DNA of 64,000 nt from Botryllus schlosseri (lineage: Eukaryota), in NCBI GenBank assembly GCA_051294905.1, contig CM119371.1, positions 9,984,001 through 10,048,000 of the forward strand, given 5' to 3'. This document shows positions 13,001 through 59,255 of the stretch, piece after piece; within the stretch, counting starts at the first letter, position 1, and each line of letters opens with the position of its first letter. The translations under genes were made by a program, and so were the position numbers. A model generated the notes under the pieces. That model saw only the letters and a list, made by a program, of their open reading frames with translations, did no database searches and was not told the origin of the DNA.

Positions 13001-16000
13001 GCCACGATGCACCAAGACATGTTTAATTTTAGGCCATGTAACATGCGACTCCGAGGAGTGTGCCAGAACGATCGGCAGCGGGACAACCTTGACCGAAAAA
13101 GACTGCCATTATGCTGACCGAAAACTTATATATATATACAATACATGTTTTATTCTCCATGGGCGCCTATATATATATATATTTAAGTATACATGTTTAA
13201 TTGGCCATAGGCGCCTAAAGAGCTTGCGCCGAATGTTCATGTCCTGGAACTCTAAAACCCACCTGCCATCTCGCCATCTCGCAGAAAAGAATTAGATGCC
13301 AGTGAAAAAAATATCAATTTGAAATCGTGTGCGTCATTTAGTTCAGTACGTTTGAACGATTTCAATATCTTTCGACATAGCAGACACGAGGTCACGAGAT
13401 AACATGATGTAAGGATGTCATTATACCCACGGTCCGTCCAAATATGTTTAATTAATATTTACGAGGCCTTACATTGTCCAAGACAACACCTCACTCAGCT
13501 TTCACCTTCACAACATATGTTCCAACGTCTGGTATTCAGACATGTTTTTGCCTTATGCGTCAATAATGTGCCACGTCGCCGTTATGAAAAATTGCTCAAG
13601 ATTAGGAGTTTGAAGGGGCACTGCACTCTAAAAATGATATGCTCTCAAATTGAAGGGCAAAACGAAATAAAAATTTTGGCCGCAGCCGTTTTCTTCAGAA
13701 CGCCACCGTAATGGAGCTGCAATTTATTGAAATTTCGATAGCAACTTCACGCTCCAGCAGTCACGCAGAGATCGAACTTTATATAGTTGTCAGCCGATGC
13801 TATGAAGGAAATATGTATAACACGCCTTGTGTCCTAGAGAAATAGAATACACTAGGCCCGACTTTGACATAAATCTCATGACTGAACATCTTCCGTTGAA
13901 CGCGGTATCTAAACCACCTAGGCGTGTACGACATATTTCCTTCCTAACATCGGCAGACAACGATATGAAGTTCGATCTCTGCGTGACTGCTGGCGCGTGA
14001 AGTTGCTATCGAAATTTCAATAAATTGCAGCTCCATTACGGTGGCGTTCTAAAGAAAACTGCTGCGGCCAAAATTTTTATTTCGTTTTGCCCTTCAATTT
14101 GAGAGCACATCATTTTTAGAGTGCAAGGCCCGTTTAAGAGCTGTCAACTGTTATGCATCATGCGATGGGTCCAGGTGTGATGTTCGTTATTATTGTCCAA
14201 TCACTTTCAAGAAAACGGTGGCGGCTAACTAGTTTCAGTTTTCCCGTTTTCTATTGATTGCTCATTAGTTATGTATCGGCTGGGGGCATTGTGACAAAAA
14301 TATGTATCATCGTGATCGATACCGACACTGAATGATAAAAACGAGCTTAGTATGCATATTGCACAATGACTAGAGTATGTTCAAGCAATGAACACGATTG
14401 ACACTTTCAAATTAGCTTAGAAATTGAAAGAAGATACCAGCAGCAGTAATATGGTGACGCCGACATACAGCCTACCGTTTATCGCAATTCAATCGGTACT
14501 ACCGATTCATATAGTATTCGAATGCATGAAATCGATGGTCGGCACCAAATCTATATGGACAGTGTACCCTATTCGTGAACTAGTTTGTAGATGTGATGAA
14601 TGTGTGTATTATATATATTAGCCATATACCAGTTACAATTAAACCAGGGGTCACCAACAGGCGGCCCGCGATGTGGTATTTTGCGGTCCGCGACCTGATC
14701 TGAGATTTCAGAAGAACGCTAAATACATTATTTTAAAAGGCTTGATTCTCAGTTATAAAATGTTACTGTTGTTGTTCAAAATAAGCCATTCTCTCGCGCC
14801 CAACATTACTATTTATCACTTGCTGATACGGCTTCGGCGTTGGTTATAGCATTTCGTGGAGGAAGAATTAGGTGAAATAGGTATATTGAGCCAATGCCGA
14901 GATGCTAAAAAAAACACCTCGGTCTTTGCCATAAGATCAAGCTTTACAAAAATATAGTTTGCTAGCAAGAAGCAACTACCGTGTCTAGCTAACCCTAATA
15001 TCGATTCCTTCGTCGCTGAAAGTGTAGGTAAGTATCGTGCGTAGCTCATAGTTCAAAATAGAATGAATGTGATGATCATGATATTTCTCTTTCCATTTGT
15101 ACTTCGTTATTTAAATATGTTCGCGGGCAAAAGCATTGTACTGACCTAAATATTAAAAAATGCGGTTGTTGTTTAACTGTGTGACCTATTTCATCTCGAT
15201 GTTGAATTTATGCGGTCCGCGGCCTCCATGAAACTTGAAAAGTGGCCCGCGAACAGTTTTGAGCTGGTGACCCCTGAATTAAAAAACTGGATTATATAAT
15301 TTTGATTCTCGCGTGTTTGATGATTCACAGGCATCCAATGTCATGATCTGGCATGTTCCATTCGGACTTTCCATATCTCAGGCAAGAAACGAGACTACAC
15401 TACGATACAGGACGACCAATAACTTTTTGCGGAGCTACGGAGGGAATATGAGAAATCTATTCAATGATTTGAAAATACTCAACCTAGTTAAACGTAGGTC
15501 TAACGTATGTAGTAAGATATGAGAAGAAAATGGATGCTCGATTTGCTCTGATAAGGCAGTTTCTCAGCACATAGTATGCATAATGTAAATACCATGTCGA
15601 GAATAAGGATATATTGGACATTTATTGATTTGATTTCTCGTTACGACATCCTATCAAATTTCTATAACGCTTAAAAACCCACTAAGTTATAAGTTTGACC
15701 CGAAATAATAGTTTCGCTCCACGTCGATTGACTTTATAAATAATAGTAGGGTTACCATATTTTGGAATCGGGAAAGGATGACACTTTTTCTAAATTTTCA
15801 AACTCAGAATTCTGGAGAAAAATCTTCTTCCACTTCGTGGCCGGTTGACTAAATAAAGGTCAACTTTCTCCCTCAGTGCCCAAAATACAGTTTTTTCCTT
15901 CACGCTTACAGGTGGTTGACAAGAAATAGGTCTTCTTCCCGGCTCAGCTCCCGAAAGACCCGCCGGAGCTTTACTTCGGTGCTGATTTACGGTATCTCAG

Positions 16001-19000
16001 TCCAACTTGACAGTAAATTTGACCAAAATTCTCAGAAACGAGGACGAAATTTCGAAAAGGAGGACATTTAGGCGCTCTCGGAGGACATTTTGAAAAACCT
16101 GAAAAAGGAGGACAAATCCTCCTAAAGGAGGACAAATGGTAACCCTACATAAGAGGGCTCTTTAAAAACGTTTTGCTGTTGGATAAACTCTAAGAATTGC
16201 TGGAAAATAATTTGATTAAATCAAGAATGGACGAGGAACCCTAGCTTTGAACGGATTAATCCCTGAACAATATATACACAAAAGTCCTTCAGAGTTCAGA
16301 CCCAATCGGCTATTGTTTGAAATTCAAACTTGAAATAAGCTAGTCTCACATGCCTCGGACGGCATGGTTATATATTTTTCAATTTACCAGCAACAGAAAA
16401 GACTATTCCGCACTTAAGGAGCATAACCGCCTCTCTAATGCGAATAAAACAGGACATCAAAGGGTGGTATGCATACAAGATCGATGCTGGAGATTATACC
16501 ATAAGTGACAGAAAATTTGTCCATGATGATGATAGCAATCGAGTGAGTTTCTTTAAATTCATGATGAACACAACACTGTGGAGCTTATCGCCTTTTTAGG
16601 CCTTGTGCTCCACGACACGAATTTCATAATGTTCAAAGGCCTTTGCTTTTGTATTCTTGGGAACGTCTTTCAATCTCTCTCGCAGTCATTCCTCATTCTC
16701 TCTCGCTCCCATACGTCCCCATCGTAGTCTCTGCGGCCGACTTGCAGCACGGCTCACTTTCAGTCTGGGCTTTCCAATGCACTACCGTAGCAGTGAGGTC
16801 GGCGATGAGGAGCCCAGAGACACCTCCGACTCATAGACATTGGTCAGAACCGGGATTCGAACCCACGTCCATTGGTGTCGCTTCCCAATTTTTTTTATCT
16901 ATAATGCGATATATAATACGCTGAAATCGTGGAATACCAACATGTTGCTTCGCACGGACGTCATATACGATCCTTGTAAGATGTGCTTACGGCTAAAGCG
17001 CTAACACTGGAAAATATCTTCCAAAATCATTGCGTGTATGTCAAATTCGGTGTTACCAAGTAACAGGTACTTCAATTCCCTGCGATGTCCAATCCCGACA
17101 GTCATTCCATTGATGGATCGTTCAACAGAGGAAAATTGCTTATTCAGGTTTTATGCAGATCGATAACAAGAAAAAGTGAAATTCTAAAAAAAAATCCTTT
17201 ACCGACTTTGTGGAGAAGGGTTGTTCAGAAAAAACTGTTTTTTTTCTAATTTAATCGGCTTAGTTGTGAAATCGTCAGGTTACTTAAAAAACGTTGCACA
17301 CCAAGTTTGACTCAATTCCAACCAGTAGAGGCCGAGGTTAGTCAAATTGAAATTTCGGTCATTTTTGAAATAATAGTATTTACGGTGACCAATTTCGTCA
17401 CACGGTCACGATCAAAAATCGTGTTCCTGGTATGCCTGAAGAGGCAGGGATGTCCTTTCTATTTGTTTTTACCTTGACAAGGGCCCATGGTGGAGGTTGG
17501 ATCAAGACATCGCCAATAAACGAGAAAAAGATATAACACGGATTAGCTGGAAATCATTCATTGAAATAGCCACGTTAAAAGGATGGTGACATAATTTTTA
17601 AATAGAGTATTTTGCACACTGAAATTAACGACCACGAAAAGGAAATAGACGGACAAGCTGGTAAAATACGGGTATATATATTTCTCAAGTGATAGTCATA
17701 TCTAGAAGTATTTTTCGTCGGACCAATTTAGATTTCACGAAACCTATCCCAGTTTTGCAGGCATACCGATGTCTCTTTGCCTTAATCCGAAGTTTTTACT
17801 GGTTGCAAAGTCGCCATTCCCAAAATCTCATCCACAGAGACATCAGTTGCATTCCTCAGCAGCTCAGTGTTCGAATATTTCTCTGCTACTTGACATTGAC
17901 TGATCCAGGACGTTAAAAATGATGCCCATTGCAATTGAGAATGGGCTATGCCAATGAATAGTATTTATGAGTTAAAAAGCATTTCTGGTACTTCACATAA
18001 GCATTGATACTAGAGATTTTATGTGCTCGAAACTTTACGACCTTCAAGGAAACTAAATGGTAACCCACTGAGCTTATAAAGCATATTTGTCTTTTTGTGG
18101 TCTTTTAATATTACCCGAACCCCTTTCTTTTCATAGAGTAAGAAAAAGCATTTTTACCACAATATATAAATACAATTAGATGGTATTCACCAAATGTGGA
18201 GGATGAAATGAAGAGAGGACGATGAATTTTGATAGGATTAAGATTTGTCACGATGCCCATTAGCCTTCTAATCCGCCTGTGAGAGTATTATAGCAGTGCC
18301 GCAGAGCAAATGATAGAATATCATATAATATCAAATTGTATCGTGAAGAATTATACATTGGACCGACAAAGAATATAGATATTGACTATCACTTGAGAAA
18401 TATATTTATCCGTATTTTATACGTGCTTATTATTTGTTCATTTTCTTTTCGTAATTTTTAATTTCAGTGTGTAAAGTACTCTATTTGAAAATTATCTAAC
18501 CGTCGTTTATACGTGTCTATATCAATGAAGTTGACTAATTTTCAGCTAATCCATGTCATATCTTTCTTTCGTTTACTGGCAATGTTTCCATCTAAACTCC
18601 ACCATAGGCCCTTGTCAAGATCAGAACAAGTGGAAACACTTCCCTGCCTCTTCGGGAATACCTGGAACACGATTTTGGGTCATCTCGGTGTGACGAAAGT
18701 GGTCACGGTAAATGCTATTATATCAAAAATGACCGAAATTTTAATTTGACTGAGCTCGGCTCCTACTGGTTGCAATCGAGTCAAATTTGGTATGCAAAGG
18801 TTTTTAGGTAACCTGATGATTTGACAATCAAGCCGATGAAATTTGAAAATACAAGTTTTTTTTGAACACCTCTAATGTGGAACCTAGCTTCATGAAAATT
18901 GATTTGTAATATTCCATAGGATGGTAGAATGATAGAAAATGATGATGATAGTTCATACCTGATTTATGGTGGATTTTCACGACCATTGCAAAATTACTAG

Positions 19001-22000
19001 TTGTGTCATCAAACCCCGAATTTCCGAATTTACAATCTGTTGACCGTGAAACAGTAGGGTTACCATATTTTGGAAATCTGAAAAGAAGACACTTTTTCAA
19101 AATATTCAGACTTACAATACCGGAGTGAAATCCGGAAAAATTGTTAATTTACTCCGAGTTTGTAGTTGGTAGTTGGTGGTCTTTCTGGCTCATATCCCGA
19201 AAGAGGCGCCAGACCGTTTCTTGAGTGATGATTTCCTATCTCAGTCCAATTTTACATATATTAAACCAACACTTTCAAAATAGTCAAAAACAAGGACAAA
19301 TCCTCCTGAAAGAGGACGTATGGTAACCCAATGTAACAGAGGCTTTAATTTCAACTTCACATTATCATACAATGATATAATCCATCCAAACACCACGTTC
19401 TACTTGTCAGAATATAACAAAAATGTGGAAAGAAAGTAGTTTGGTTTCAAAAACTCTTAGTAGAAGTGTTCAAAGAAAACATAATCGCGTGAGTAAATGA
19501 TGCATGTAGATAACCCGTGCTTCAGTACTTTCAACCATTAGGTCCGTATACATCGTTACGTAACCTCTTAGCGCATATGTAACGCTGTCGAGGATGGCCT
19601 CATGCTTTAGCGCAGGCACCAATATCAATATTGTAGGCCGTCTCATTTTCTCGACGTTTTTCGTGCCGATTCCTCTCTACGGACTACCTCGGATAAATTG
19701 CACGAAATTGAAGACTTCGTCCAGCAACAATTGAATCCCACTCGGTGAAATTTCATTAATATTCATACTTTGTTGCGCCGATAGCAGACGATATATATAA
19801 ACTAAGATCTTGGTATCTTTCACACTCTATTTAACGTCCACCTGCGAATGAATATAACTAATAAAGTTAGATTCATTCGCAGGTGGACGTTAAATAGAGT
19901 GTGAAAGCTACCAAGATCTTACGTTTATTTATATTCCTGTTATTCATAATTTCTGAATGCATTTAATCAAGTACAATTATCTGTACTGTCCTAAATTTTA
20001 CTCCACGCGATAGTATGACAATGCCGTACGATTCGATTAGCGAATTCCAACGTTGATTTGGAGTCTGAAAATCGCTGTCAAATTTTCAATTTGATGGGAT
20101 TTAATTGATGTAAGATATCATGAACATTTTCCGTAGTTGCCGCATCGAAAGGTTTGCAGGGATGCCGCTATTTGCGAAGGTGAAGCTCAAAATATAAATA
20201 TAAACAAAAAATATTTATAATAGGTCTCATTCATCAGCAGCCCGTATGGATACGTGCGTTACGGCAAGGTCCACAGGTAATGATTATCATTTTCGATATC
20301 ATAAAGCAGACCAATTTATCGCGAGAGCAACAATAGCAGGTGGTAGACCGTATTATTAGACATAATATTATGAATAAAACCATTTTATCGGCCCTTCTCG
20401 CAAATCAAGTTTTTTACTCAACGCAGGTAATCAAATAAAGAGAGGTCAAATATGAAACACGTTCCTAACAATGGAAATGGGAATACGTAATTAAATATAT
20501 GAATCAGGTATGAGTCCGAACATGTTTGCGGCAATGTTGAAAAGTTGAATAGCCAGTACTCTGGGCCACATGAACAAGTTTTCTTCCACTCTCTATCACT
20601 TTGGAACAAGCCAATATCTAGTGATCGTTTCAATTTCCTGCACTGCTACCAGAGTTGTAAACAGGTAACGGGTTCCCGAATCACAAATCAATTATACTTG
20701 TATATTTTGAATTGGAGTCAAGGAGAGTCATTGTCTAGTCACCAGCGAGTCAAGTCCGAGTCCAAGCCATTGTATCCACGGTTCATTTCCTAATTCTATC
20801 CTGTTTAACTCACATTTGTGCAACTCTGTTCGGGAGATATTGAATGCCTCCCATTAATTGACCACACTTAACACGGTTTCGTGCCCTATTTCACAAACAC
20901 CAGTCATGATAGACGAAATACCAACAATGTGATAGCTGACATTATTATTCGAATGAAAACGAAACGCCTGTATTGGCCGTGCGGGTTTCGAGTCATATGA
21001 CGTGTTCGAGTCATGCGCAATGACTCAAGTACAAGTTGAGTCAATACACAAATCGCCTCAAGTCAAGTCGAGTCATTTCCCATTATTTTGAAAAAGTCAA
21101 GTCACCAAAATATCACGACTCGAGTCGAGTCATGACTCAAGACATTACAGCCTTGGTGCTGACACAGTGGTAACTGTAAGTTGGTAATTAATTTCAAAGA
21201 GCGCCGGGCTCAAAGTGATGGCATATAATCGTATGGAGACGGAATGCATTTTGTGGATTTCCTCAGCGTCGTCAAGAGCAATAAGTAAAGAATTTCCGAC
21301 CTAAAAAATCTAACCACACTGATCAAATCGATTTCCACGCTAGGGGACCAAATTTCCAAAGTTTGGACATCGTTTACTTGAAGATAAAATCGACTATTAC
21401 CGGCTCAGACAGGTTGCAAAATGTGGATTTTATTTGGAATTGTGATAATAATATTCGATGGGGAAGATGTTAAGGATGGATAACTATCGGTGTTTAGTAA
21501 CGTCGTAGTTTTTTTTCATTAACCGAGGAGCCGTGATATTGTGGTCAGCTATTGTCATACCACCGTGTCCACGTCCCAATTTGTCGTCAATCAGATTTTT
21601 ACTTTTTTTAGTTGCTTTGGTCAGCCGGGTAATCGGATTAAATTAATCTGCTCAATCTCCAGTGATTTTGCATTTACCAGTAGACACGGTACGAACAAAA
21701 TTGCTTCGTTGCCCACTGACACTGATTAGATTTGACATCTGACTGTTGATTACAACGAGCATAATACTCATGAATGTTTCGAAGTTCCAATTTAGTTGTT
21801 GTCGTTGTTGTTGTTGTTGTTGTTGTTTGTGGCATTCATGATGTTTATCGAATGTAATTGTCATTTACACCAGGGCGATATTATTTACTATGGACTCCGT
21901 AGCTGCCGACTTGAAGCACGACTCTCTTCTATTTTTATAAGTGACCGCTTACGCGGGTCAGATGACAAGAAGGAGCCAAGATAAACTTACCACAATTAGA

Positions 22001-44771: not shown

Positions 44772-45690
44772 ATTGCATAGTGACGGCAGGCGTCACACGC
44801 TAATATGAGTATGCGTAGACCGCCGCATAATTATAATTATGGTTTTACGGCTGCATGTGGCCGTACCTCCACAGGTTGGCCACCCCTGGCCAAATAGACA
44901 TAAGAATAAGACAGAGCATCTAATACAGTGGTTCTCAAACGCAACAATGAGACCCCCTGGCTACGCCGCCTCTGCAATTATGTGGACTTCGGTCTGCGCT
45001 GTTTATAACCATCTGGCAGGTACCAATTCAAAATATCTGCGCTATCGCGGCGGTTTCCGCGAGCAACATACTAGACAGCAGTTATCGCAAGCTGAACAGT
45101 GAACACACGTTAACTCCATCCTGTTCTACTCCAAAAGGAACCAATATGTCCACTTACCACTACCAACGTTTAAATTATGACGAGAAAATTCGCTGATGAC
45201 ATCCCAAAAGATCTGTAAACATTGTACGATATTGCACATACGGTCATACTGTTCAGAAGCATGAACCTGTATATTTATAGTGATAGCTAGTTATAATGTA
45301 ATGCGTATCTGGTACACCCCAGTACGATTGGCACACACTTTGAATCAGAAGCGGCCAACCTTTTCGGCCAAAAGGACACACGAGATTTGTGAACCATTGC
45401 GCGGGCCACTTGAATGTTGATGACATCTTTTAGTCGTCCAATAGGAGTGAACCGGATTAGGAAACGGTGTAAATAAACAATATTTATCTTACTACCTATA
45501 TCAACATCAATAACAACTAGGTCATGAAAACTCAGTGTGCCGCAGGCGCGAAAATTTTTCAAAGTTTAGGAATAAGTTCGTTCAATAATATTGTCACTTG
45601 CATATATTATGTGTAGCCACCGTATACCTCTGGGCTCGTTTGGCAAGGACAGAATCTTTTTGCTAGTGCAGACGCGAAGTCTGATGTTGG
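44772..45690 (+). repeat. Segmental duplication, copy 1 (copy 2 = 48332-48371 plus 49883-50842)
   Basis: Colinear high-identity sequence from TTGCATAGTGACG.CAGGC.TCACACGCTAATATG to GTGCAGACGCGAAGTCTGATGTTGG. Confidence 0.9.
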
Positions 45691-46122: not shown

Positions 46123-47412
46123 TCAGGTATGATTTGTGACGCCAACATGGATATCCATATGACGCTTGAGGTTTCCTTTCCTAGTAAATGCTTTCCCACA
46201 TACATCACAGGTGTGATTCTTAACGCCAGCATGGATATCCATATGAAGCTTGAGGTGTCCCTTTCGAGTAAATGCTCTCCCACATACATGACAGGTATGA
46301 TGTTTGACGCCAGCATGGATATCCATATGACGTTCGAGGTTATTCGTCATTGTAAATGCTTTACCACATATATCACAGGTATGATTTTTAACGCCAGTAT
46401 GGATAAGCATATGAAGGTTGAGGTGACCTTTCTGTGTAAATGCTTTACCACATACATCACAGTTATGATTCTTAATGCCAGCATGGATATCCATATGAAG
46501 CTTGAGGTCTCCCTTTCGAGTAAATGCTCTCCCACATACATGACAGGTATGATGTTTGACGCCAGCATGGATATCCATATGACGTTTGAGGTTACTCGTC
46601 ATTGTAAATGCTTTACAACATACATCACAGTTATGATTTTTAACGCCAGTATGGATAACCATATGAAGCTTGAGGTCCCCCTGCCGTGTAAATGCTTTAC
46701 CACATACATCACAGCTATGATTCTTAATGCCAGCATGTATATCCATATGACGCTTGAGGACTCCCGTTTGAGTGAATGCTCTCCCACATACATGACAGGT
46801 ATGATGTTTGACGCCAGCATGGATATCCATATGACGTTTGAGGTTACTCGTCATTGTAAATGCTTTACCACATACATCACAGTTATGATTTTTAACGCCA
46901 TTATGGATAACCATATGAAGCTTGAGGTGACCCTGCTGTGTAAATGCTTTACCACATACATCACAGTTATGATTCTTACCGCCAGTATGGATAACCATAT
47001 GACGCTCGAGGTTACCCTTCAGTGTAAATGCTTTACCACATACAACACAGTTATGATTCTTAATACCAGCATGTATATCCATATGTCGTATGAGGTCTCC
47101 CTTTTTAGTAAATGCTTTCCCGCATACATCACATTCATGATTTCTGACGCCAGCATGCATATCCATATGACACTTCAGGTGATATTTTCGTGTAAATGTT
47201 TTACCACATACATCACAGCAGTTATTGTTGTTACCGCCAGCATGGCTATCTACATGACGCATGAGATCTCCCTCCTTACGATTTTGACCGCCAGCATAGA
47301 CATCCATATGAAGCTTGAGGCTACCCTTCCGTGTGAAAGTTTTCCCACATAAATCACAGTGGTAATTTCTGCCAACAGCTTGCATATCAATATGACGTTT
47401 GAAGACCAACAC
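46123..47412 (-). CDS. Tandem C2H2 zinc-finger protein (13 intact fingers plus degenerate ones); 5' end unresolved, possibly pseudogenic
   Basis: 84-bp units CxxC-x12-HxxxH with HAGVKNHxC-type linkers; the ORF starts at GTG inside a degenerate finger. Confidence 0.85.
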   Translation of the reverse strand: MLVFKRHIDMQAVGRNYHCDLCGKTFTRKGSLKLHMDVYAGGQNRKEGDLMRHVDSHAGGNNNNCCDVCGKTFTRKYHLKCHMDMHAGVRNHECDVCGKAFTKKGDLIRHMDIHAGIKNHNCVVCGKAFTLKGNLERHMVIHTGGKNHNCDVCGKAFTQQGHLKLHMVIHNGVKNHNCDVCGKAFTMTSNLKRHMDIHAGVKHHTCHVCGRAFTQTGVLKRHMDIHAGIKNHSCDVCGKAFTRQGDLKLHMVIHTGVKNHNCDVCCKAFTMTSNLKRHMDIHAGVKHHTCHVCGRAFTRKGDLKLHMDIHAGIKNHNCDVCGKAFTQKGHLNLHMLIHTGVKNHTCDICGKAFTMTNNLERHMDIHAGVKHHTCHVCGRAFTRKGHLKLHMDIHAGVKNHTCDVCGKAFTRKGNLKRHMDIHVGVTNHT

Positions 47413-48371: not shown

Positions 48372-49882
48372 TAGGGTTGTTCAGATTTGGGCATTTTTTG
48401 AAATCTTGTTTTGCGTAATTGCAAATGATAGTTTAGTGGATAAAAACACTTCTAAAAGCGATTTTGGTCATTTTCATCGCGATCTTCCTTGCGCGCAAAG
48501 CCCCCAAAGACCCACGGGCCAATTCTCCTTACTGCAGACTATTCACCATTCCTGGTTTGTAGCTTTAGTGAAGTTTGCGGTAGAAAACGGCTGAGTAGAC
48601 CTGGGAAATATCAGGTTGAATTATCTTTTTGACGATTGAACATACTTACATTCCTATACATTCCAAATGTGGTTCACATTCCCGTATTTGACATAGGTAG
48701 CCGCGTGGTAGGCCTATGTATGAACGAATACAGGCATTTTCAGCTTGTTTTAACTCAGTAAATGTTAATCAAAGACATGTTGTGTATGAATGTAATTTCA
48801 TCTTTATAGTAGCTCCAATTCACCTAATCCGCATCAGGTTTTCAGTATTTAATGCGTCTGAAGGAATGTTGACCCCCCCCCCACCTCCGAACACAAAAAC
48901 TCAGGCCTGTACTGTCCAATGCGTTGTCACAGTAGCGAATACGGCCAGAATACCTAGGTAAATTGTGCAAATGTCAAAAGCTCACGACACTAGGCTTCTT
49001 CTCAAAAGATCATGGCAGTTAAGTCTAAATGGGGTTCCTGATCCTCAACTACCAATGCATTCTCTAAGAAAACGTCCACGGTGTTCTTATGGAAACAAAA
49101 ACAATAATCTCAATACATATTGGTCATTGTCGTCACCCACTATGGTATGTGCTTGCAACTATGTATTGAGATTATTGTTTCTGTTTCCGTAAGAACGCCG
49201 AGGACGTTTTCTGACAGAATGCATTGTTAGTTGAGGATCAGGACCCCCATTTAGACTCAACTACCATGATCTTTTGAGAAGAAGCCTAGTATCGCGAGCT
49301 TTTGACATTTGCACAATGTACCTAGGTATTTTGGCCGTATTCGGTACTGCAGGCCGTTTTTGTGTTCGGAGGTGGGGGGGTCAACTTTCCTTCTGACGCA
49401 TTAAATACTGCAAACCTGATGCGGATTAGGCGAATTGGAGCTACTATAAAGATGAAATTACATTCATATACAATATGTCTTTGATTAACATTTACTGAGT
49501 TGAAACAAGCTGAAAATGCCTGTATTCGTTCATACATAGGCCTACCAGACGGCTACCTATGCCAAATACGGGAAGGTGAACCACATTTGGAATGTATAGG
49601 AATGTAAGTATGTTCAATCGTCAAAAAGATAATTCGACCTGATATTTCCCAGCTCTACTCAGCCGTTTTCTACCGCAAACTTCACTAAAGCTACAAACCA
49701 GGAATGGTGAATAGTCTGCAGTAAGGAGAATTGGCCCGTGGGTCTTTGGGGGCTTTGCGCGCAAGGAAGATCGCCATGGAAATGACCAAAATCGCTTTTA
49801 GAAGTGTTTTTATGCACTAAACTATCATTTGCAATTACGCAAAACAAGATTTCAAAAAAATGCCCAAATCTGAACAACCCTA
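48372..49882. mobile_element. 1.5-kb fold-back (palindromic) hAT-type element
   Basis: TAGGGTTGTTCAGA ... TCTGAACAACCCTA; arms ~48372-49119 and ~49160-49882; perfect 8-bp TSD ATGGGTAT; the empty site is visible in duplication copy 1. Confidence 0.9.
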
Positions 49883-52800
49883 ATGGGTATGCGTAGACCG
49901 CCGCATAATTATAATTACGGTTTTAAGGTTGAATTTGGCCGTACCTACACAAGTTGGCCAACGCTGGCCAAATACACATAAGAATAAGACAGAGCATCTA
50001 ACACAGTGGTTCTCAAACCCGACAATGAGACCCCCTGGTCACGCCGCCTCTGCAATTATGTAGACTTCGGTCTGCGCTGTTTATAACCATCTGGCAGGTA
50101 CCAATTCAAAATGTATGAGCTATCGCGGCGGTTTCCTCGGGAAACATTCTAGACAGCAGGTATCGCAAGCTGAGCACATGTTAACTCCATCCTGTTTTAC
50201 TCAAAAACGAACCAATATGTCCATTTACCACTACCAATGGTTAAATGATGACGAGAAACATTTGCTGATGACATCTCAAAAGAACTGTAAACATTGTACG
50301 ATATTACACATACGGTCATACTGTTCTGAATCATGAACCTGCATATTTATTGTGACAGCTAGTTACAATGTAATGCGTATCTGATACACCCCAGTACGAT
50401 TGGCACACCCTTTAAACAAGGAGTGGCCAACCTTTTCGGCCGAAAGGACACATGAGATTTGTGAACCATTGCGCGGTCCACTTGAATGTTGATGACATCT
50501 TTTAGTCGTCCAATAGCAGTGATCCGGATTAGGAAACGGTGTAAACAATATTTATCTTACTACCCATCAACATCAACAACAACAACTAGGTCATGACAAC
50601 TCAGTGTGCAGGAGGCACGAAAATTTTTCAAAGTTTATGAATAAATTCGTTCAATAATATTGTTACTTGCATATATTACGTGTAGCCTCCGTATACCTCT
50701 GGGCTCATTTGACAAGGTCAGAATTATTGACCCTTGGACCTATCACTATCGAAGATTTTGCAAACATGCATTTATAATTTTGTATAAAGGTTTCATCGCC
50801 GATGTTCTTTTTGCGAGTGCAGACGCGAAGTCTGATGTTGGACGACATAGTTGGATATACAGCTAGACTCATTTCCGTAAATGTAGGGTATTTTTAATTT
50901 TCAGAGGAGGTAGCAATACTAAGAGTAAGAAATCGAGTGACAATCAATCGATCGAAGTGCTTAGAATAATTTCAAGTCAAATAAATCTACCACGAAATAT
51001 TCTACTTCATGGTTATATATGTAGATTTACGAAAAATGTGGCGTTGCCAAAGCGTCGGAACTGATATTTTAGTCATCAACATCCTAAATTTCGTGGTCAG
51101 GTTAATCAAATTTATGGTTGGCCTTGCAAGCTCCTAATAAATTATGTGGATAATTCATCTTAAATTGAACTAATTATAAGAATTACCTCGCGGGCACTGT
51201 TTACTTTAAGCTGCTCATGAGCGCGGCCGCGCACTGCTTTTGAAGTCGCCGCGCACATACAAACGTCTGCCTCGCACAAGAAAGCCGAAGGGAAGACCTT
51301 TTATTAGACGTTACCCACTGTTGCCTTAGGGACTGCGCAGTGAGTTGGTGAGTGCGCGCAGATTCGTGAAAAATCAGAGGGAACATTGCTCGCGGGTCAC
51401 TCAAAACCTTCTCGAGGGTCACATTTGGCCCAAGGGCCACGAGTTAGCCGGCCCTGCTTTCAACATTACGGTACACCCTTGGGTGTACGATAGCATACAG
51501 CCGGTTGAAGAGCCCTGACATAGTTAGCTATTCAACTGTGTGATAATACAGGCTTATGAACAAGCCTAGGTATTTTACAATCAACTAGGTCTCTTACAAT
51601 CAAGTATCAGCCTAAGTATTAGGAAACAGCTTGGTATTTTACCCTTTATAAACTTGTCATACCCACACTAAAATATGCAAGCCTTCGGGAAACTTTAAAT
51701 TTTTGCTAAATTACAAAAAAAATAGTTCTAACACAATACACATCTAATCCATTACTATCAAATACTTGTGCATAAAATGAGCTGTGCAATGTCCATCAAC
51801 AACAGTGTTAGAAGGCAAAACTATTACAACATGATTTTGACATACAGCAAAAAGATGCTGATGAATATTTACTGCAAATCAGGTTGACTTTTGCTGTATG
51901 AGTCAGTTGCATGTTTTGACCTTCAGCCGATCGAGGTTTGGTTCTAGATTTGAAATTTCCCCACGAATACTCAAATTTATTTCAAATGGTGTTCATTCTG
52001 AGAGTCATCGCGTACATTTGGCTTTCATTAACACATGCTGCTTCATAACAGTGGCATTATACAAAATGTGTCAATTGAGCAATTGAGCATACTAACTACC
52101 ATACAAATCTTTAAATCTCAGTTCCAAAAGGCATATTATGCATTACATGCATCTTGATTTCATAGGGAAATATCTACCGAGCTTTCTGTTATTTCGGAAA
52201 ATATCTCTGACTACAAATATCAAAATTTCAGCCTTTTCAAATTAGACTAGAAGCAGAATTATAGCTGTCAGTTTTTTCTAAATTGGACTAGAATTAGATT
52301 TTTAGCCACACTTTTTTCAATATAATTAGGGAATAATTAGAAGGATCGCTACACAGTTTTCTTCACAAATTAGATTAGAATTAGTATTATTGAATCTGCA
52401 AAAACTTGAACTTAGACTCGGGTTCATTTCATAGCAATTCAAAGTTCATTGACATAAGCATGATAATATCAAATGGCTGTACACCGAAATTAATTCGTTT
52501 CTCCTAGCATTTTCAGGAAACCAGAAATTAGATTAGAATTAAAATGAAAGCATAGAAACATTACACAAGTTAGATTAGAATTGGATTAATGGCTTAGTCT
52601 AGTCAGACAACTAGAAATATCTAGTTGTCCAAGTGTGTTTTAGCGCTGATAAGCAAGCAGTTACCGAAGTAGGCCGACCTCATAAGTCGAGTTTAAGACT
52701 CGCTGTGAATGTGTTTGCATTTTAATTCAATATTGTTACAATAATGGTCTTGTCAGCTTGAAAAATATACCATCAAATTAGACAGATTAAACATAAGGAT

Positions 52801-53021: not shown

Positions 53022-54312
53022 TGGGGATGGTGTGAACCTCTGAAAGGTTCAGGTTCGCGTCAACGCGAACCTTTTTGAAAGTTTCTGTGTGAACGCGAAC
53101 GTGAACCTCATGACGTCACTTGCCGTCATATTACTAATCCTAACTAGGGCTGGGCACAATGATTCGAGTACTCGAATCTGAATCGAGTATTAATTTTGAT
53201 GATTCGAGTCGAGTAGAAAAGACGATTTTTTCGAGTACTGAAATTTTGCGCTTCTGGCCGCTAAAAGTTAATTTATCTACGAGAATTATAGTGTCGATAC
53301 TAATTTTCGCTGTTGAAGCCTTGAAACCTTGATTCGGGGTATCGTAGCATACGAAACATATAGTACAAACCTACGAAGGTTGCTGGACGTAGCACATTTA
53401 TGAAGTCATGACAATCTCACAACATTGTCATCAAGTGGAATGAAATCGATATGGTCCGAAAAATACCAAAGTATCATTTATGAGATGGATAACAGGCATT
53501 TTATTCTTTGTGGTGGTATAAACGGTGCATATTTGAACTTTGACGCATTATATTCCGTTATGACGTCATAATTATTGGCACTCGATTTCTCGACTCGACT
53601 CGAAGTATATTGCGTGATTCAGAATCGAATCACTCTGGTACTCGATTTTGCCCAGCCCTAATCCTAACCCTACATGTCAGTGAAGTGACAGCCCATATTC
53701 TTGTACACGATACCTAGCGACGACTCAGCCACATAATGCCGCGATGCTGAAGTACATATTGACGTTTTAAACGTCGCCAAATGTATCAACTGGGACAATC
53801 AAGTGATCTAATAATTTATGATACAATAAACATATGAAATCAAGATTGACCCAGTACGCCTGCTAGATTTTTTACATCAGACAACGATATCTATTTCATT
53901 GATTGGTTGAATAAACATGATTCGCTGACTACCTACATGTCGAGTATTCCGCTCTTGATGTTGTGTGATTGCGGATGAAGCTTACAGCAGAGAGTTACTA
54001 AACATTCGCAAGCGGAAAGCTGGATATTTCGAGCAAACTTTTGTTACAAAGCGAGTAAATTTTTTTAGATTTACAAGATGCATGATCGTTTAGTGTTGAT
54101 ATTTTTATGCGGTCAGCGCCATGCACAGAGTGACCTGCGGTTGAAATGCAATAAATTTCAACCAAAGATGTTATAATGAAGCGAAAATTGTAATATATGA
54201 AAAAGGTTCACAGTGCAGAACCTACCAAGGTTCGTTTGTGAACGTGAGCCTCTAAATTCCCAAGGTTCACACACAGAACGCGAACGTGAACCTCACGTTC
54301 ACACCATCCCTA
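53022..54312. mobile_element. hAT-type MITE (GGGATGGTGTGAAC) with a nested element
   Basis: Perfect TSD ATTGTGAC; GAACC/GGTTC subterminal repeats. Confidence 0.85.
53145..53660. mobile_element. Nested hAT-type MITE (TAGGGCTGGGCA)
   Basis: Perfect TSD ATCCTAAC; TCGAGT subterminal repeats. Confidence 0.85.
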
Positions 54313-55342
54313 ATTGTGACCAAACGCACTTGTTACATTAACTAACTGCAAGAGAACACAATAGAACACTGGTATCACAATTTCAGTGTAAAATAACATC
54401 ACATGTGTCGAGTTCTAGTTCAAGTTGTAGGCTATGTTCGCAGGCGCAGCTATATTTTTTAAATGCACAACCAGAACTAGAACTGCTCCCTATTTAAACT
54501 CATGAACTAGAACTACTTGAAAAACAGTATCCAGTTGTTGATCATCAACTAACTAATCACTGAGGTCGTGGCGAAGTTAAAGCATGAAGATATCATAGAC
54601 GCGATTCTACAATCCTGACCGCTTGAATCATACAAGGCATTATTATTCCAATATAAAACATACCACATACTAAGCTATCTGGATAAGCCTGACTAGTTCT
54701 GACCGAGAATGTACCATTATACTCACCTACCAATATAAGTGCTACTGGTATTACTACACGCGCGCTTTCGTATTGCTTTCGGAAGTGCCGCATATCAAGT
54801 TACAATCCGGCACAAACTACAGAAACACCTCCAAGACACCCATGGACTACGTAATACAGCAGATGTTTTAACGGAGTATATTGGTATAACGCCATTTAAA
54901 TATTATTCGATAAGGAGTTGGTAAACCTTACATAATTATCTGAACTGGAACCCGATAAGACCTTTGTAAGTCGTATATTCTATCGTGTGAACGTTGATAA
55001 CAATTTGGCATGTACTCTCTCGTGCCTATGAGAGAGGGTCATTCAATTCATGATATTTCGCGGATTCGGAAGTCCGTTACTTTGTCGTACGTAATTCAAT
55101 AAAGTTACAAGTCGTGGAGACAGAAACAAAATATATTCGTCAGTGTGATCCATCGAATACGTGTCCAATAGACAGGCTTCGTGGTACGTTAGCCAACAAG
55201 GCCGTACGGCGCGGTTACGCCGGTTCGTCGAACGAAAGAAGAAACACGCAGCGAATTGTAAACGCAACCTTCTTGGAGTCAATAATACATCTTGGAGTCA
55301 GATATACAATTATACAACTACAAACATTCGCTCTGCGTTAAA

Positions 55343-55360
55343 TGGTGACCCCGACGTGAT
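55343..55360 (+). promoter_or_regulatory. Primer-binding site complementary to tRNA-Trp
   Basis: TGGTGACCCCGACGTGAT is the reverse complement of the 3' 18 nt of metazoan tRNA-Trp(CCA), and sits immediately after the 5' LTR. Confidence 0.9.
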
Positions 55361-56239
55361 TAATCACGACGACCGGCCGACCGAAGACAATATAAAGATT
55401 CGCCCTGCACGACGGCGAGAAATAGCAAGACCGAGCAACGGACCACGGAAACGATCAATATAAAGATTCGCCTTGCACAGCGGCGAGAAAGAGCATTCAG
55501 AGAAAACGACGAGACGTTATTGCCAGGAAGAAATGCAGTGGGGTTGTGCTTTCGACGATCAATACGCCGTAACAAAGACAACAATGAAGAAGACGTCTGC
55601 AGTGTCAGAAAATGCTCGGAAATCGCAGAAGTTTAGCAGATGTGCGGACAGTGGTGCTCCAAGCATGCATCACACGGATTAGAACAATAAGGTAGATCGA
55701 TTTTATTCTCTTACACTACGACGTTAGTTGGTTACTGTTATTGGGATATTGACAAAGTGTAGTTTTGTAAAGTAACTTGCAATCATTGGTTTCTATACCC
55801 AGATAGGGGTCGCATTTCCTGCGAGTCTGGACGCAGGTGCTTATATAGCATAATGTTTTGATAAGAGATGTGTGCGGGTAAACCCGTAGCAAGAAGGCTA
55901 CCCTATTTATTCGATGCCATGATGCATCCAATAGCTGAATAGCTTGATATGTATGTGTGATGAATAATGATATATTGCAAGCCTTATGAAGAGATATTAG
56001 GCCTCTGCCATACGACGATACCCTATGTTGAGTATATCATTGAGAAAATATGCACCGCGGTAGTGCATGATATTTGCAAACATTGCTTTGCATGTAATAC
56101 AATAAATAGGGCACACTCTCGTTCTGTTGGTATGTACCAATGTTAAATGCTACGTGATATGAATTAGGAAGTTTCATATCAATTTAGGATAAAATGATTG
56201 CAGGTGAATATTCGATTTTTTTAAACCCATAACAGTATC

Positions 56240-56812
56240 TTGCTAATTAGTTGTTGTGCGAGTGATATTATCGGTTTTCTGAATGCCCAATGTAAGGTAT
56301 CCTTTAATGTTACCGTAATATCGTGTATGTATTGTTTTGAGGTATTAAGTCATGTTTGTGTTTTTTTGTTTGATTGCCTAATGTTCTTGATTTGTATGTC
56401 AGTAGTCTGCATAAACAGACCGATGTTACTTTTTCCGCCATTTGATGTAGATAACGACGCGTTCGATGATGTTTTGCAGCAGTTTCCGCCCGTTGAGGCG
56501 GACAAAGTTGTACTAAACTCCGCGGTAAATCCGGGTGACGCAGGTGTAATTTCGTCCGGTAGTGATGACAGCGAGAGCGACTGTCCGGGTAGTGTTAGGG
56601 ACGAATCTAGAGAGCGTGTATCTGATTTCTTACCTGCTGATGTTGATCGCGTAATTCGTAGGCGTGAATCCCGCGTGCGCGATAATGCTAAAACCCAAAC
56701 ATATAATGAAGGCAGGACTCTCAACGAGTCAAGTCCAAGATATACGTCCAGAGGGAGACGAATTGTTAGACCAAGACATTTGAATGATTATGTGTTGCAT
56801 TCAATCGCATAG
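56240..56812 (+). CDS. ORF resembling the C-terminal tail of a Gypsy Pol/integrase
   Basis: Acidic low-complexity region ending RYTSRGRRIVRPRHLNDYV, the R..R...P..L.DY motif typical of LTR-retrotransposon Pol tails; true start unknown. Confidence 0.5.
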   Translation: MLISCCASDIIGFLNAQCKVSFNVTVISCMYCFEVLSHVCVFLFDCLMFLICMSVVCINRPMLLFPPFDVDNDAFDDVLQQFPPVEADKVVLNSAVNPGDAGVISSGSDDSESDCPGSVRDESRERVSDFLPADVDRVIRRRESRVRDNAKTQTYNEGRTLNESSPRYTSRGRRIVRPRHLNDYVLHSIA

Positions 56813-57967
56813 AATAAAGATATGCGTGATGAAAATTGTGCCTTGTGCATTAATATGTTGTATAAATGCAGGATTGCTGCTTCATCGATTGTCGAATCGC
56901 GTAACGTAAAGATGGGCGCGGTTAAATTGCGCTTCGTACAGTGATATATTATGTAAATGCAGGATTGCTGCATCATGTTGTGACTCCCCGTCGTAGAATG
57001 TAACGTGGGATCACCGAAGCTCTTTGCTGGAGTATACGTTGTAGAAATGAATGCTGACATCAAAAGGTTAGTCTCGTGTAGGCCCGGTTGTGGTCACGGA
57101 ACGGTGCGTCATGTTTGAGTTGGTCACTGTAGAATGGTTGTTGGATTGTCATAAGCCCTCTGTTGATGCGCGCGAACAACACGGATTTGGAAAGAATGAT
57201 TGTTGATCCCGTTGGCCAGGGGTTAACAGTAGTGATGAGAAAGTAGAAAAAGTAAGTGAATGACGGTAAATAGCAGGTTCTGTGGGTTTTGAGGCATGAT
57301 TGCTGGATGAATTATAATGTTGGCCTTGCATACACGTTGATGGCAGTCGTCAGTGCACAGACTTTTTCTGTCTATGAATTGTATTGTAGTTACTTTAGCT
57401 GTTTATCTTTATTATTCATTTTCATTACTTTGTGGTTTTGCATGCGAAGTGGCCTTTAATGTCACCGCTGTCCCGGTTTTGTGCTATTGATATTTTAGTC
57501 CTGCATTTGTGTTTTATGATGGTATGTTATTGCAAGCAATGAGATCGTGATTGTCTCTATGGTATCGCTTTTGAGCTAATTTTTATGTTTCTTTTATTGT
57601 ATTGATGATATCATGTTATTATTGCATGCGAAGTGACCTTTAATGTCGCTGATGGTACCGCTTTTGTGCTAGTTAATGTCTTTTATTTCATTAATTGTAT
57701 TTGAACGCTAAATATGGTTGGTTTGCGTTTCAGTTGCCTCTAGGGCGTCATAGTGTGATTTCGTGTCATCCCGAGATGGTTAGGTAAAGTAGGGTTGCCG
57801 AATGCCACGCTTGGATGGTATTTCGTTTCATTAGTTTACTTTTGCCCCTGCATATAAAATTGTTTCCTGTCTTCAGTCCCTATGATTAGCCCCAGTCCAT
57901 ATGTTGTATGACCCTAGGTTTGAGTTATTGACCAATATACTCGTTTTTTTTTACACCAAGTTATTTT

Positions 57968-57982
57968 GGTGGGAAGGGGGAA
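57968..57982 (+). promoter_or_regulatory. Polypurine tract
   Basis: GGTGGGAAGGGGGAA, 2 nt upstream of the 3' LTR. Confidence 0.85.
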
Positions 57983-58465
57983 CTTTTAACGGAGTATATT
58001 GGTATAACGCCATTTAAATATTATTCGATAAGGAGTTGGTAAACCTTACATAATTATCTGAACTGGAACCCGATAAGACCTTTGTAAGTCGTATATTCTA
58101 TCGTGTGAACGTTGATAACAATTTGGCATGTGCTCTCTCGTGCCTATGAGAGAGGGTCATTCAATTCATGATATTTCGCGGATTCGGAAGTCCGTTACTT
58201 TGTCGTACGTAATTCAATAAAGTTACAAGTCGTGGAGACAGAAACAAAATATATTCGTCAGTGTGATCCATCGAATACGTGTCCAATAGACAGGCTTCGT
58301 GGTACGTTAGCCAACAAGGCCGTACGGCGCGGTTACGCCGGTTCGTCGAACGAAAGAAGAAACACGCAGCGAATTGTAAACGCAACCTTCTTGGAGTCAA
58401 TAATACATCTTGGAGTCAGATATACAATTATACAACTACAAACATTCGCTCTGCGTTAAAGATGT

Positions 58466-58790
58466 GTTTCGACTTTAATGTAGACAATGGGCCTGGACAT
58501 GCTCGACGACTGTCGCATAGCCGGCGAGATCCTGCTCCACGAATCAGGTCCGGCATAGCTGATAGAGCGATGTTCTTTTTTGTCCACCATATGTTGAACG
58601 ACGTGGACGCGCGTGTATGGTATTTATGCACTTTCGATACCGAGGTAACGAAGTCATCGAAGTTTTCGGGAAAGTTGCCGCAGTGGAATTGAAAGGCCTA
58701 CATAAACTTGGCAATTTTTAGTCTTCGCATATCTTCTATGTTTAGGACACCGAATCTTTTGAGCAGCCATTGTAAAAACTATTCACAGCT
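58466..58790 (-). mobile_element. L2/CR1-type LINE 3' relic, target of the LTR insertion
   Basis: Minus strand LLKRFGVLNIEDMRRLKIAKFM...FPENFDDFVTSVSKVHKYHTRAS resembles a LINE ORF2 C-terminus. Confidence 0.6.
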
Positions 58791-59255
58791 CAACTGTACA
58801 GTACAGATTTTTCGGGAAAGTAATTCGATTCGGATATTCTTTGATTTTGGATGGCATTGTTCGAATTAGCATCGGTTTTAGTTGAGATTTTCCGGATTCG
58901 GACGGATAGTTCCTCACAGCATGGAAAACTGAAGGGACTCGAGCGCTGTCGGACGGATTCGCATTCCAAGAAATCAATATCAGCTCATCACTTGATGAAG
59001 TCATAGCGACACCTTACGGTCGTGCGTCGCCTACAAAGCATATTTTTGTTTTGTATAGAAATAAGGAGAGAGAGAGAGAGAGAGTCTTTATTTTCATCTA
59101 ACCAAAATACATAAAAACAGACGGCAATGATAATGGTAAAGAAAAAATGCATGCACAGTATTCGGTATCTGATAGGAGTGATCGACACGACCATGAAGGT
59201 CAACTAGTCTGATCACACCAGCATCAAACAGGAAGGCCTATACTTGACTCTACAC

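What the first reader, a model, noticed from the sequence alone, without database searches (positions are those of the whole stretch)
54862..58465. Recently inserted LTR element with non-canonical TT...AA termini
Seen: the 5-bp TSD GATGT (54862-54866, 58461-58465) abuts LTR ends TTTAACG...CGTTAAA. Both LTRs carry these ends, the primer-binding site follows directly and the polypurine tract sits 2 nt before the 3' LTR. Known: retroviral-type integrases almost always act on TG...CA ends. Here the change relative to TGTAACG...CGTTACA is complementary at both ends, so post-insertion decay is unlikely. The LTRs differ at only one position seen, so the insertion is recent. Inference: a tRNA-Trp-primed family whose integrase accepts AA-3' ends, which TG/CA-filtered LTR finders would miss.
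Basis: partly seen in the sequence, partly recalled or inferred. Interest (0 to 1): 0.7.

Follow-up and report, generated by a model that had tools for sequence, protein, structure and literature searches.

The report
Young retrotransposon copy with TT-AA ends
This is a real, recently inserted, protein-less jumping gene whose terminal repeats begin with TT and end with AA instead of the usual TG and CA; an AA right end is already known in one retrotransposon group, while AA-type tips at both ends look like a new variant that standard search programs would skip.

Summary
The element is real: two 476-477-bp LTRs with one mismatch, an 18-nt tRNA-Trp-type PBS, a polypurine tract and a duplicated target. 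The boundary is ambiguous by one base at each end. Public runs point to a multi-copy family: polypurine-tract/LTR junctions starting at 54866 occur in 4 of 4 runs, a high-depth LTR contig about 3% diverged keeps T at 54868, and one contig looks like an empty allele. The TT start therefore looks inherited, not decay. The AA right end was not seen in other copies. No gag or pol was found, so clade and helper integrase are unassigned. AA-3' ends are not new: tRNA-Trp-primed CsRn1-clade elements end TGT...AAA with 4-bp TSDs (PMC2582038), as do two metagenome elements. I found no TT...AA family in print. Verdict: new variant of a known kind, moderate interest.

The parts
54862..54866 (+). Left target-site duplication GATGT (4-6 nt within 54861-54866, by register)
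   Evidence: an X5 contig stops aligning at 54866 with 28 letters left over (table 8, record 10)
54867..55342 (+). 5' LTR, 476 bp, TTTAACG...CGTTAAA (may start at 54866 or end at 55341)
   Evidence: one mismatch to the 3' LTR at 55014
55098..55103 (+). Only AATAAA in the LTR, candidate polyadenylation signal (copy at 58216-58221); function not tested
55343..55360 (+). 18-nt primer-binding site of tRNA-Trp type, no spacer after the LTR in registers (a) and (b)
   Evidence: same 18-mer after the LTR in retrovirus records; fits the tRNA-Trp PBS pattern quoted in PMC2582038; host tRNA not checked
55388..55495 (+). Leader with two 40-nt copies (55388-55427, 55456-55495, 90% alike)
56423..56812 (+). 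129-codon open stretch ending in a basic motif like the Pol/integrase tails of several LTR-element clades; candidate pol remnant, unproven
   Evidence: similar tails in L026, L033, L038, L064, L088; searches blank; lead-level atlas hit Integrase_p58_C 0.83
56813..57967 (+). Non-coding 3' region with short internal duplications (56803-56885/56895-56976; 57438-57486/57622-57671; 57515-57606/57609-57701)
57968..57982 (+). Polypurine tract, followed by CT before the 3' LTR in register (a)
   Evidence: tract-to-LTR junction seen in 4 of 4 runs
57985..58460 (+). 3' LTR, 476 bp, TTTAACG...CGTTAAA (may start at 57984 or end at 58459)
58461..58465 (+). Right target-site duplication GATGT (within 58460-58465, by register)

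Best explanation
A young copy of a multi-copy, non-autonomous LTR retrotransposon family (LARD-like, 3.6 kb), moved in trans by an unseen autonomous partner. Shown: LTR pair, PBS, polypurine tract, TSD, no intact gag or pol. Inferred: the RNA is primed by tRNA-Trp directly after U5 and by the polypurine tract before U3; reverse transcription copies the U3 tip from the 3' LTR and the U5 tip from the 5' LTR into both new LTRs, so the TT start and AA end are inherited from the parent; the helper's DDE integrase joined two 3' ends that both finish in AA (both CGTTAAA-3' in the preferred register (a)) with a 5-bp stagger. The TT start is a family trait older than the roughly 3% divergence between this copy and the bulk of the family. 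The helper integrase therefore works on AA-3' at both ends, by tolerance or by preference.
For: Anatomy and registers. Register (a) alone places a 7-nt inverted pair symmetrically and fits the rGmr1 motif TGTNANR...CGTNACA of PMC3601003 at 6 of 7 positions on each side, failing only at the G and the C; joint 57983 to 54866 in 4 of 4 runs (X5 depth 1175.9 in 2 contigs; X23 6 raw reads from 4 starts); a variant joint 57979 to 54866 in 2 of 4 runs whose four letters next to the tract differ yet which resumes at 54866; an X5 contig of depth 1600 aligns from 54868 to 55035 with 4 other letters, matching the four listed variants at 54953, 54980, 54995 and 55025, so it keeps T at 54868; at 54995, 55025 and 55036 all listed depth in all four runs shows another letter while both LTRs of the window agree, so this copy comes from a diverged parent that shares the TT start; every internal bin is covered in all four runs; candidate empty allele (X5 record 10, depth 39). 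Precedent for inheritance of a changed tip through the 3' LTR: TARE1 model (PMC3701649, passages). Precedent for AA-3' ends.
Against: No other insertion was read end to end: 1879 loose ends, 192 joints and 442 variant rows were not shown, because a very high-copy repeat at 53660-54312 filled the tables. The AA right end was not seen in any other copy. The reading of the joints assumes the aligner does not run through a mismatch at 54867; that joint is marked 'between: not known'. The depth-1600 contig begins at 54868, not 54867, which could mean that copies differ at 54867. No helper or integrase was found. Ty1 integrase did not use AA ends at physiological metal levels (PMC8487063, passages), so AA is not a neutral change for every integrase.
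Confidence: 0.62

Rival explanations
1. Register (b): a 477-bp LTR with a 4-bp TSD (GATG). The element derives from the known tRNA-Trp-primed TGT...AAA type (CsRn1-like) by one G-to-T change at position 2 that spread through the 3' LTR as in TARE1. The 7-nt symmetry is partly coincidence and the integrase is simply the tolerant kind already described.
For: The maximal LTR match is exactly 54866-55342; T at 54866 is kept in both tract-to-LTR junction variants; CGTTAAA fits the CsRN1 3' motif MSYYAMA at 7 of 7; CsRn1-clade elements have a tRNA-Trp PBS, 4-bp TSD and TGT...AAA ends (PMC2582038); L060 ends in the same CGTTAAA; the depth-1600 contig starts at 54868, as expected if copies differ at 54867.
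Against: The left end fits the CsRN1 5' motif TGTGGYG at only 2 of 7 in register (b) and 4 of 7 in register (a). The five CsRn1-type loci inspected have 5 nt between the G-run and TGT, this element 3 or 4. In L058 and L060 the integrase frame ends at the polypurine tract, here about 1.15 kb lies between. tblastn and tblastx of the element against 110 tRNA-Trp-PBS loci found nothing.
Confidence: 0.22
2. Only a sub-lineage, or this copy and its parent, has both changed ends. Most of the family ends in CA on the right, and a conventional integrase occasionally lets an AA end through.
For: The window's copy differs from the bulk of laid sequence at several near-fixed sites; the right end of other copies was not shown; 92 of 107 measurable tRNA-Trp-PBS loci have CA within 0-6 nt of the PBS; Ty1 integrase takes AA ends only with millimolar Mn2+.
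Against: High-depth contigs and raw reads keep the T-run at the left end; no other letter at 55341 is among the 40 best-supported variants shown (weak: 442 rows hidden).
Confidence: 0.12
3. Not integrase work: an assembly artefact, an integrase-independent insertion, or a Troyka/piggyBac-like reading with CG...CG ends and a TTAA target.
For: Both ends can be read TTAA|CG...CG|TTAA (54868-54873, 58454-58459). Troyka ends in CG...CG (PMC12440569).
Against: TTAA also stands at both internal LTR ends, so it belongs to the LTR; the outer AGATGT duplication would be unexplained; the candidate empty-allele contig stops at 54866, not 54871; Troyka needs a 3-bp TSD and here the three bases are TAA versus TTA; PBS, polypurine tract and TSD are all in place; the tract-to-LTR junction is in 4 of 4 runs.
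Confidence: 0.04

Closest known systems
CsRn1 clade of Ty3/Gypsy (CsRn1, PwRn1, AgCR-1 to -14; PMC2582038, passages read; CsRN1 motif in PMC3601003 Table 3)
   Same: tRNA-Trp PBS; right end AAA; CGTTAAA fits MSYYAMA 7 of 7; a 4-bp TSD is one of the four possible registers
   Different: Left end TTT instead of TGT; long 3' non-coding region; no PBS spacer; no CHCC Gag or pol to test; preferred register has a 5-bp TSD
Gmr1-like Ty3/Gypsy elements (rGmr1 motif TGTNANR...CGTNACA, PMC3601003; reported from Ciona per PMC8220671; L031 here is one with a tRNA-Trp PBS)
   Same: End motif fits 6 of 7 on both sides in register (a); tRNA-Trp priming occurs in the clade
   Different: G2 is T and the penultimate C is A; pol order cannot be tested; polypurine tract of L031, L062, L086 differs
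Non-TGCA plant LTR elements: TARE1 (TA...CA), AtRE1 (TA...TA), Tos17 (TG...GA), lotus groups, TGTT and AACA (10.1101/137141, PMC9804982, PMC3701649, PMC5659011; passages read)
   Same: Changed terminal dinucleotides inherited by young copies; TATA is likewise a symmetric double change
   Different: Mostly Copia in plants; TTAA is not in the lists read, and in lotus the second base was always a purine
Zam/errantivirus group (AGT...AnT; PMC3601003, PMC5408687) and Troyka (CG...CG, 3-bp TSD; PMC12440569)
   Same: Animal lineages in which the terminal signature departs from TG...CA at both ends
   Different: Different letters and TSD; these are defined by their proteins, which this element lacks
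LARD-type non-autonomous LTR retrotransposons (term as used in PMC5659011; details recalled)
   Same: LTRs, PBS and polypurine tract kept, internal region non-coding and multi-copy
   Different: Animal host, 3.6 kb, unusual ends; helper unknown

Membership tests
LTR retrotransposon (integrase-inserted) | Two near-identical direct LTRs | tested here: met
   476-477 nt, 1 mismatch
LTR retrotransposon (integrase-inserted) | PBS after 5' LTR, polypurine tract before 3' LTR | tested here: met
   55343-55360 and 57968-57982
LTR retrotransposon (integrase-inserted) | 4-6-bp TSD | tested here: met
   4, 5 or 6 bp by register; candidate empty allele
LTR retrotransposon (integrase-inserted) | TG...CA termini | tested here: not met
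   TT...AA in all four registers; not obligatory, exceptions are published
Autonomous element | Intact gag and pol | tested here: not met
   Longest frame 195 codons stop to stop; no Pfam family at E below 0.1 for six frames tested
Non-autonomous family (LARD-like) | The non-coding internal region is itself multi-copy | tested here: inconclusive
   All internal bins covered in 4 of 4 runs, one internal contig at depth 590.5 against 39 for a flank contig; the tool warns that depth is no copy number
CsRn1 clade | tRNA-Trp PBS | tested here: met
   not diagnostic, also in BEL/Pao (L033, L064) and Gmr1-type (L031) loci
CsRn1 clade | 4-bp TSD | tested here: inconclusive
   Register (b) gives 4 bp, the preferred register (a) 5 bp
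CsRn1 clade | Ends TGT...A(C/A/T)A | tested here: not met
   Right end fits 7 of 7, left end starts TTT
CsRn1 clade | CHCC Gag signature and RT/IN phylogeny | not testable with these tools
   No gag or pol in this copy; no genome held; helper not found
Gmr1-like clade | Integrase upstream of RT | not testable with these tools
   No pol domains; only the end motif resembles it, 6 of 7 on each side
BEL/Pao | Peptidase_A17, DUF1759, DUF5641 domains | tested here: inconclusive
   None found in the frames tested, but the copy is non-coding; tRNA-Trp PBS and a similar Pol tail occur in BEL loci
Troyka | CG...CG termini with 3-bp TSD | tested here: not met
   Bases beside the inner CG are TAA and TTA, and they recur at both internal LTR ends

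The most novel reading that the evidence does not exclude
An animal LTR-retrotransposon lineage whose integrase has switched its attachment site from CA-3' to AA-3' at both ends (identical CGTTAAA tips, 5-bp TSD), with an autonomous helper and sister families that all end TT...AA. It would be a further lineage-wide terminal signature beside errantiviruses and Troyka, invisible to TG/CA-filtered annotation, and a natural pair for asking what the conserved C does.
Probability: 0.3. Interest if true: 0.62.

Novelty: new variant of a known kind. Interest (0 to 1): 0.4.

Why it matters
The terminal CA is the best-conserved cis signal of retroviral-type integration, and Ty1 integrase does not use AA at physiological metal levels (PMC8487063). 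A recently active family with AA at both transferred ends would mark an integrase with changed end recognition that can be compared with CA-specific relatives. It also marks an annotation gap: TTAA is two mismatches from TGCA and is not in the LTR_retriever motif list quoted in PMC8220671. The surprise is limited because one-sided AA ends (CsRn1 clade; two TG...AA Gypsy rows in the annelid supplement) and several other non-canonical ends are already on record.

Tried and rejected
No genome was held, so copies, termini and TSDs could not be tabulated and the host tRNA-Trp and the helper could not be sought. Laying four runs on 53600-57983 was meant to show other insertions' flanks; a very high-copy repeat at 53660-54312 filled the loose-end table. 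No listed holder was on record as RNA; the RNA run X23 covers the element thinly in both directions and not the unique flank at 54335-54775, which says nothing firm on strand or level. Protein searches with the 129-codon stretch: none at E up to 1 among 295 and 12 candidates, none at E up to 0.001 among 1.84 billion representatives, atlas lead only (0.83). Pfam on six frames of the element: nothing below E 0.1. Rfam on 54500-58900: 0 matches. No tRNA gene in the window. Metagenome scan for TTAAA directly before the PBS: 0. The PBS in viral contigs gave 9 retrovirus records, unrelated to the question. An 18-nt LTR-end pattern gave 5 prokaryote and 1 viral match of at most 23 nt, chance. Earlier findings by sequence: 0 windows for the LTR and for the internal part. 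A Cys/His-rich stretch at about 55600-55680, broken by a stop, looked like a zinc finger; it remains untested. The Troyka/piggyBac reading was rejected (see rivals). Papers opened without bearing: PMC3286476, PMC11656987 (its 'TT..AA' hits are TGTT..AACA), PMC13524379, PMC12477816, PMC10886601 (only notes a tRNA-Trp-primed Gypsy).
Full report
Observation. Two direct repeats match over 477 nt (54866-55342 and 57984-58460) with one mismatch, A55014 against G58132. The 18-mer after 55342 is of tRNA-Trp type: the same 18 letters follow the LTR in retrovirus records and fit the tRNA-Trp PBS pattern quoted in PMC2582038; the host tRNA was not checked. A purine run ends at 57982. One mismatch in 476 gives about 0.001 substitutions per site since insertion (95% range 0.00003-0.006); I assume no rate.

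The boundary. The flanking duplication can be as long as AGATGT and overlaps the LTR match by one base at each end, so four registers fit: (a) TSD GATGT with ends TTTAACG/CGTTAAA, (b) TSD GATG with TTTTAACG/CGTTAAA, (c) TSD AGATG with TTTTAACG/CGTTAA, (d) TSD AGATGT with TTTAACG/CGTTAA. Every register reads TT...AA, so that part is robust. All four predict the same empty site, so the proposed empty-site test cannot decide. Register (a) is preferred because it alone sets a 7-nt inverted pair symmetrically at the tips, as published end motifs are, and it fits the rGmr1 motif TGTNANR...CGTNACA at 6 of 7 positions per side, failing only at the G and the C (PMC3601003 Table 3).

Coding content. The 2641-bp internal region has no gag or pol. 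The longest frame is 195 codons stop to stop; six frames of the element gave no Pfam family below E 0.1. Its last 129 codons end in a basic motif like the Pol tails of CsRn1-type and BEL/Pao loci fetched here, but three protein searches were blank and the atlas gave only a lead (Integrase_p58_C, 0.83). The copy is non-autonomous and cannot be placed in a clade by its proteins. Earlier notes of this scan call the host a tunicate; I did not test that.

Other copies. No genome was held. Twenty listed runs of one organism, from 8 studies, hold part of the stretch; I laid 4 of the 24 listed runs on 53600-57983, which holds the left flank, one LTR and the internal region. X1 may be the source of the assembly; X5, X7 and X23 are other samples and studies. 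Results: (i) a joint from 57983 back to 54866, that is tract to LTR start, in 4 of 4 runs (X5 depth 1175.9 in 2 contigs; X23 6 raw reads from 4 starts); (ii) a variant joint from 57979 to 54866 in 2 of 4 runs, with four letters between that differ from the window at three places, yet resuming at 54866; (iii) an X5 contig of depth 1600 that aligns whole from 54868 to 55035 with 4 other letters and 1 gap; the listed variants at 54953, 54980, 54995 and 55025 account for the four, so it keeps T at 54868, the second base in register (a); (iv) at 54995, 55025 and 55036 all listed depth in all four runs shows another letter while the window's two LTRs agree, so this copy came from a diverged parent; (v) every internal bin is covered in all four runs; (vi) an X5 contig of 171 letters, depth 39, aligns from 54724 to 54866 and leaves 28 letters over, as an empty allele would, though those letters were not shown. 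Together these suggest a family of many copies, an insertion that is absent from some chromosomes, and a TT start shared across copies about 3% apart. Limits: depth is no copy number; 442 variant rows, 192 joints and 1879 loose ends were hidden because a very high-copy repeat at 53660-54312 filled the tables; no other insertion's flank and no other copy's right end was shown; the reading of the joints assumes the aligner stops at mismatches; and the depth-1600 contig starts at 54868, which could mean that copies differ at 54867, the second base in register (b).

How it most likely works. Shown: the cis signals and the TSD. From established retroelement biology: the U3 tip is copied from the 3' LTR and the U5 tip from the 5' LTR, so a changed tip appears in both LTRs of every daughter; this is the model given for TARE1 (PMC3701649, passages). 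Decay after insertion would need four changes in LTRs that otherwise differ by one. Inferred: a helper element supplies Gag, RT and integrase; with no spacer before the PBS the right end needs little or no trimming, while the left end carries about two extra bases from the tract; both joined 3' ends finish in AA. Whether the integrase prefers or merely tolerates AA is open. Ty1 integrase used AA ends only with millimolar Mn2+ (PMC8487063, passages).

Comparison with what is known. AA-3' ends in tRNA-Trp-primed elements are published: CsRn1-clade elements have 4-bp TSDs and ends TGT...AAA or TGT...ATA (PMC2582038, passages; its alignment of termini is an image supplement I did not see), and the CsRN1 3' motif MSYYAMA fits CGTTAAA at 7 of 7. 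Two TG...AA Gypsy rows and one TT...AT row stand in the annelid supplement, with no TTAA motif (PMC8220671, passages and supplement search). My own scan agrees: of 110 metagenome loci with this PBS, 92 have CA within 0-6 nt of it, 15 do not and 3 are too short; two of the 15, L058 and L060, are CsRn1-type elements with TGT left ends and AAA right ends, L060 ending in the same CGTTAAA; they show no TSD. The PBS is not diagnostic: BEL/Pao (L033, L064) and a Gmr1-type element (L031) use it too. Lineage-wide departures at both ends exist in the Zam/errantivirus group (PMC3601003, PMC5408687, passages) and Troyka (PMC12440569, abstract and passages); plant lists hold TGCT, TGGA, TGTA, TGGT, TACA, TACT, TATA, TGTT, TCCA and AACA but not TTAA (10.1101/137141, PMC9804982, PMC5659011, passages; their supplements not seen). 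I found no TT...AA family in the searches; the library lacks most subscription papers, and Repbase and Dfam could not be searched, so this is weak evidence of absence.

Verdict. The element works like an ordinary integrase-inserted, tRNA-primed LTR retrotransposon riding on a helper. It is not filed under CsRn1, whose TGT start is not met, nor under Troyka; Gmr1-like and BEL/Pao cannot be tested. What may be new is AA at both joined ends. If register (a) holds across the family and its helper, it is a symmetric switch of the attachment site; if register (b) holds, it is one change away from a described type. New variant of a known kind, interest 0.4; novel case probability 0.3, interest 0.62 if true.

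Noticed in passing
window 53660-54312: A very high-copy interspersed repeat with sharp ends about 550 nt left of the element: summed depth of several hundred thousand to two million and hundreds of loose ends at 53660 and 54312.
   Followed up: no
window 46123-47412, minus strand: Frame of 429 codons with about 14 tandem C2H2 zinc fingers, set between duplicated blocks at 44805-45655 and 49883-50724 and next to a 1.5-kb palindrome at 48394-49859.
   Followed up: no
window 55600-55680, plus strand: Cys/His-rich stretch broken by a stop in the element's leader; looks like a zinc-finger remnant, could be chance.
   Followed up: partly
window 57979 to 54866 joint: A minor variant of the family has different letters between the polypurine tract and the T-run, beginning with TG (tables 5 and 5c); it may only be a spacer variant, but a longer TG-starting end in that sub-family is not excluded.
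   Followed up: no
L058:1332-1508 and L060:604-812: CsRn1-type elements from metagenomes with TGT left ends and AAA right ends before a tRNA-Trp PBS, independent cases of the published TG...AA type.
   Followed up: partly
L031, L033, L064: The same 18-nt tRNA-Trp PBS serves a Gmr1-type element with a SCAN domain and BEL/Pao elements.
   Followed up: partly
L050:1627-3339, minus strand: A 571-codon frame with a NADAR domain lies 528 nt after a tRNA-Trp PBS-like site.
   Followed up: no
window 13610-14137, 17229-18862, 19803-19921: Several long inverted-repeat pairs, probably MITEs or fold-back elements.
   Followed up: no
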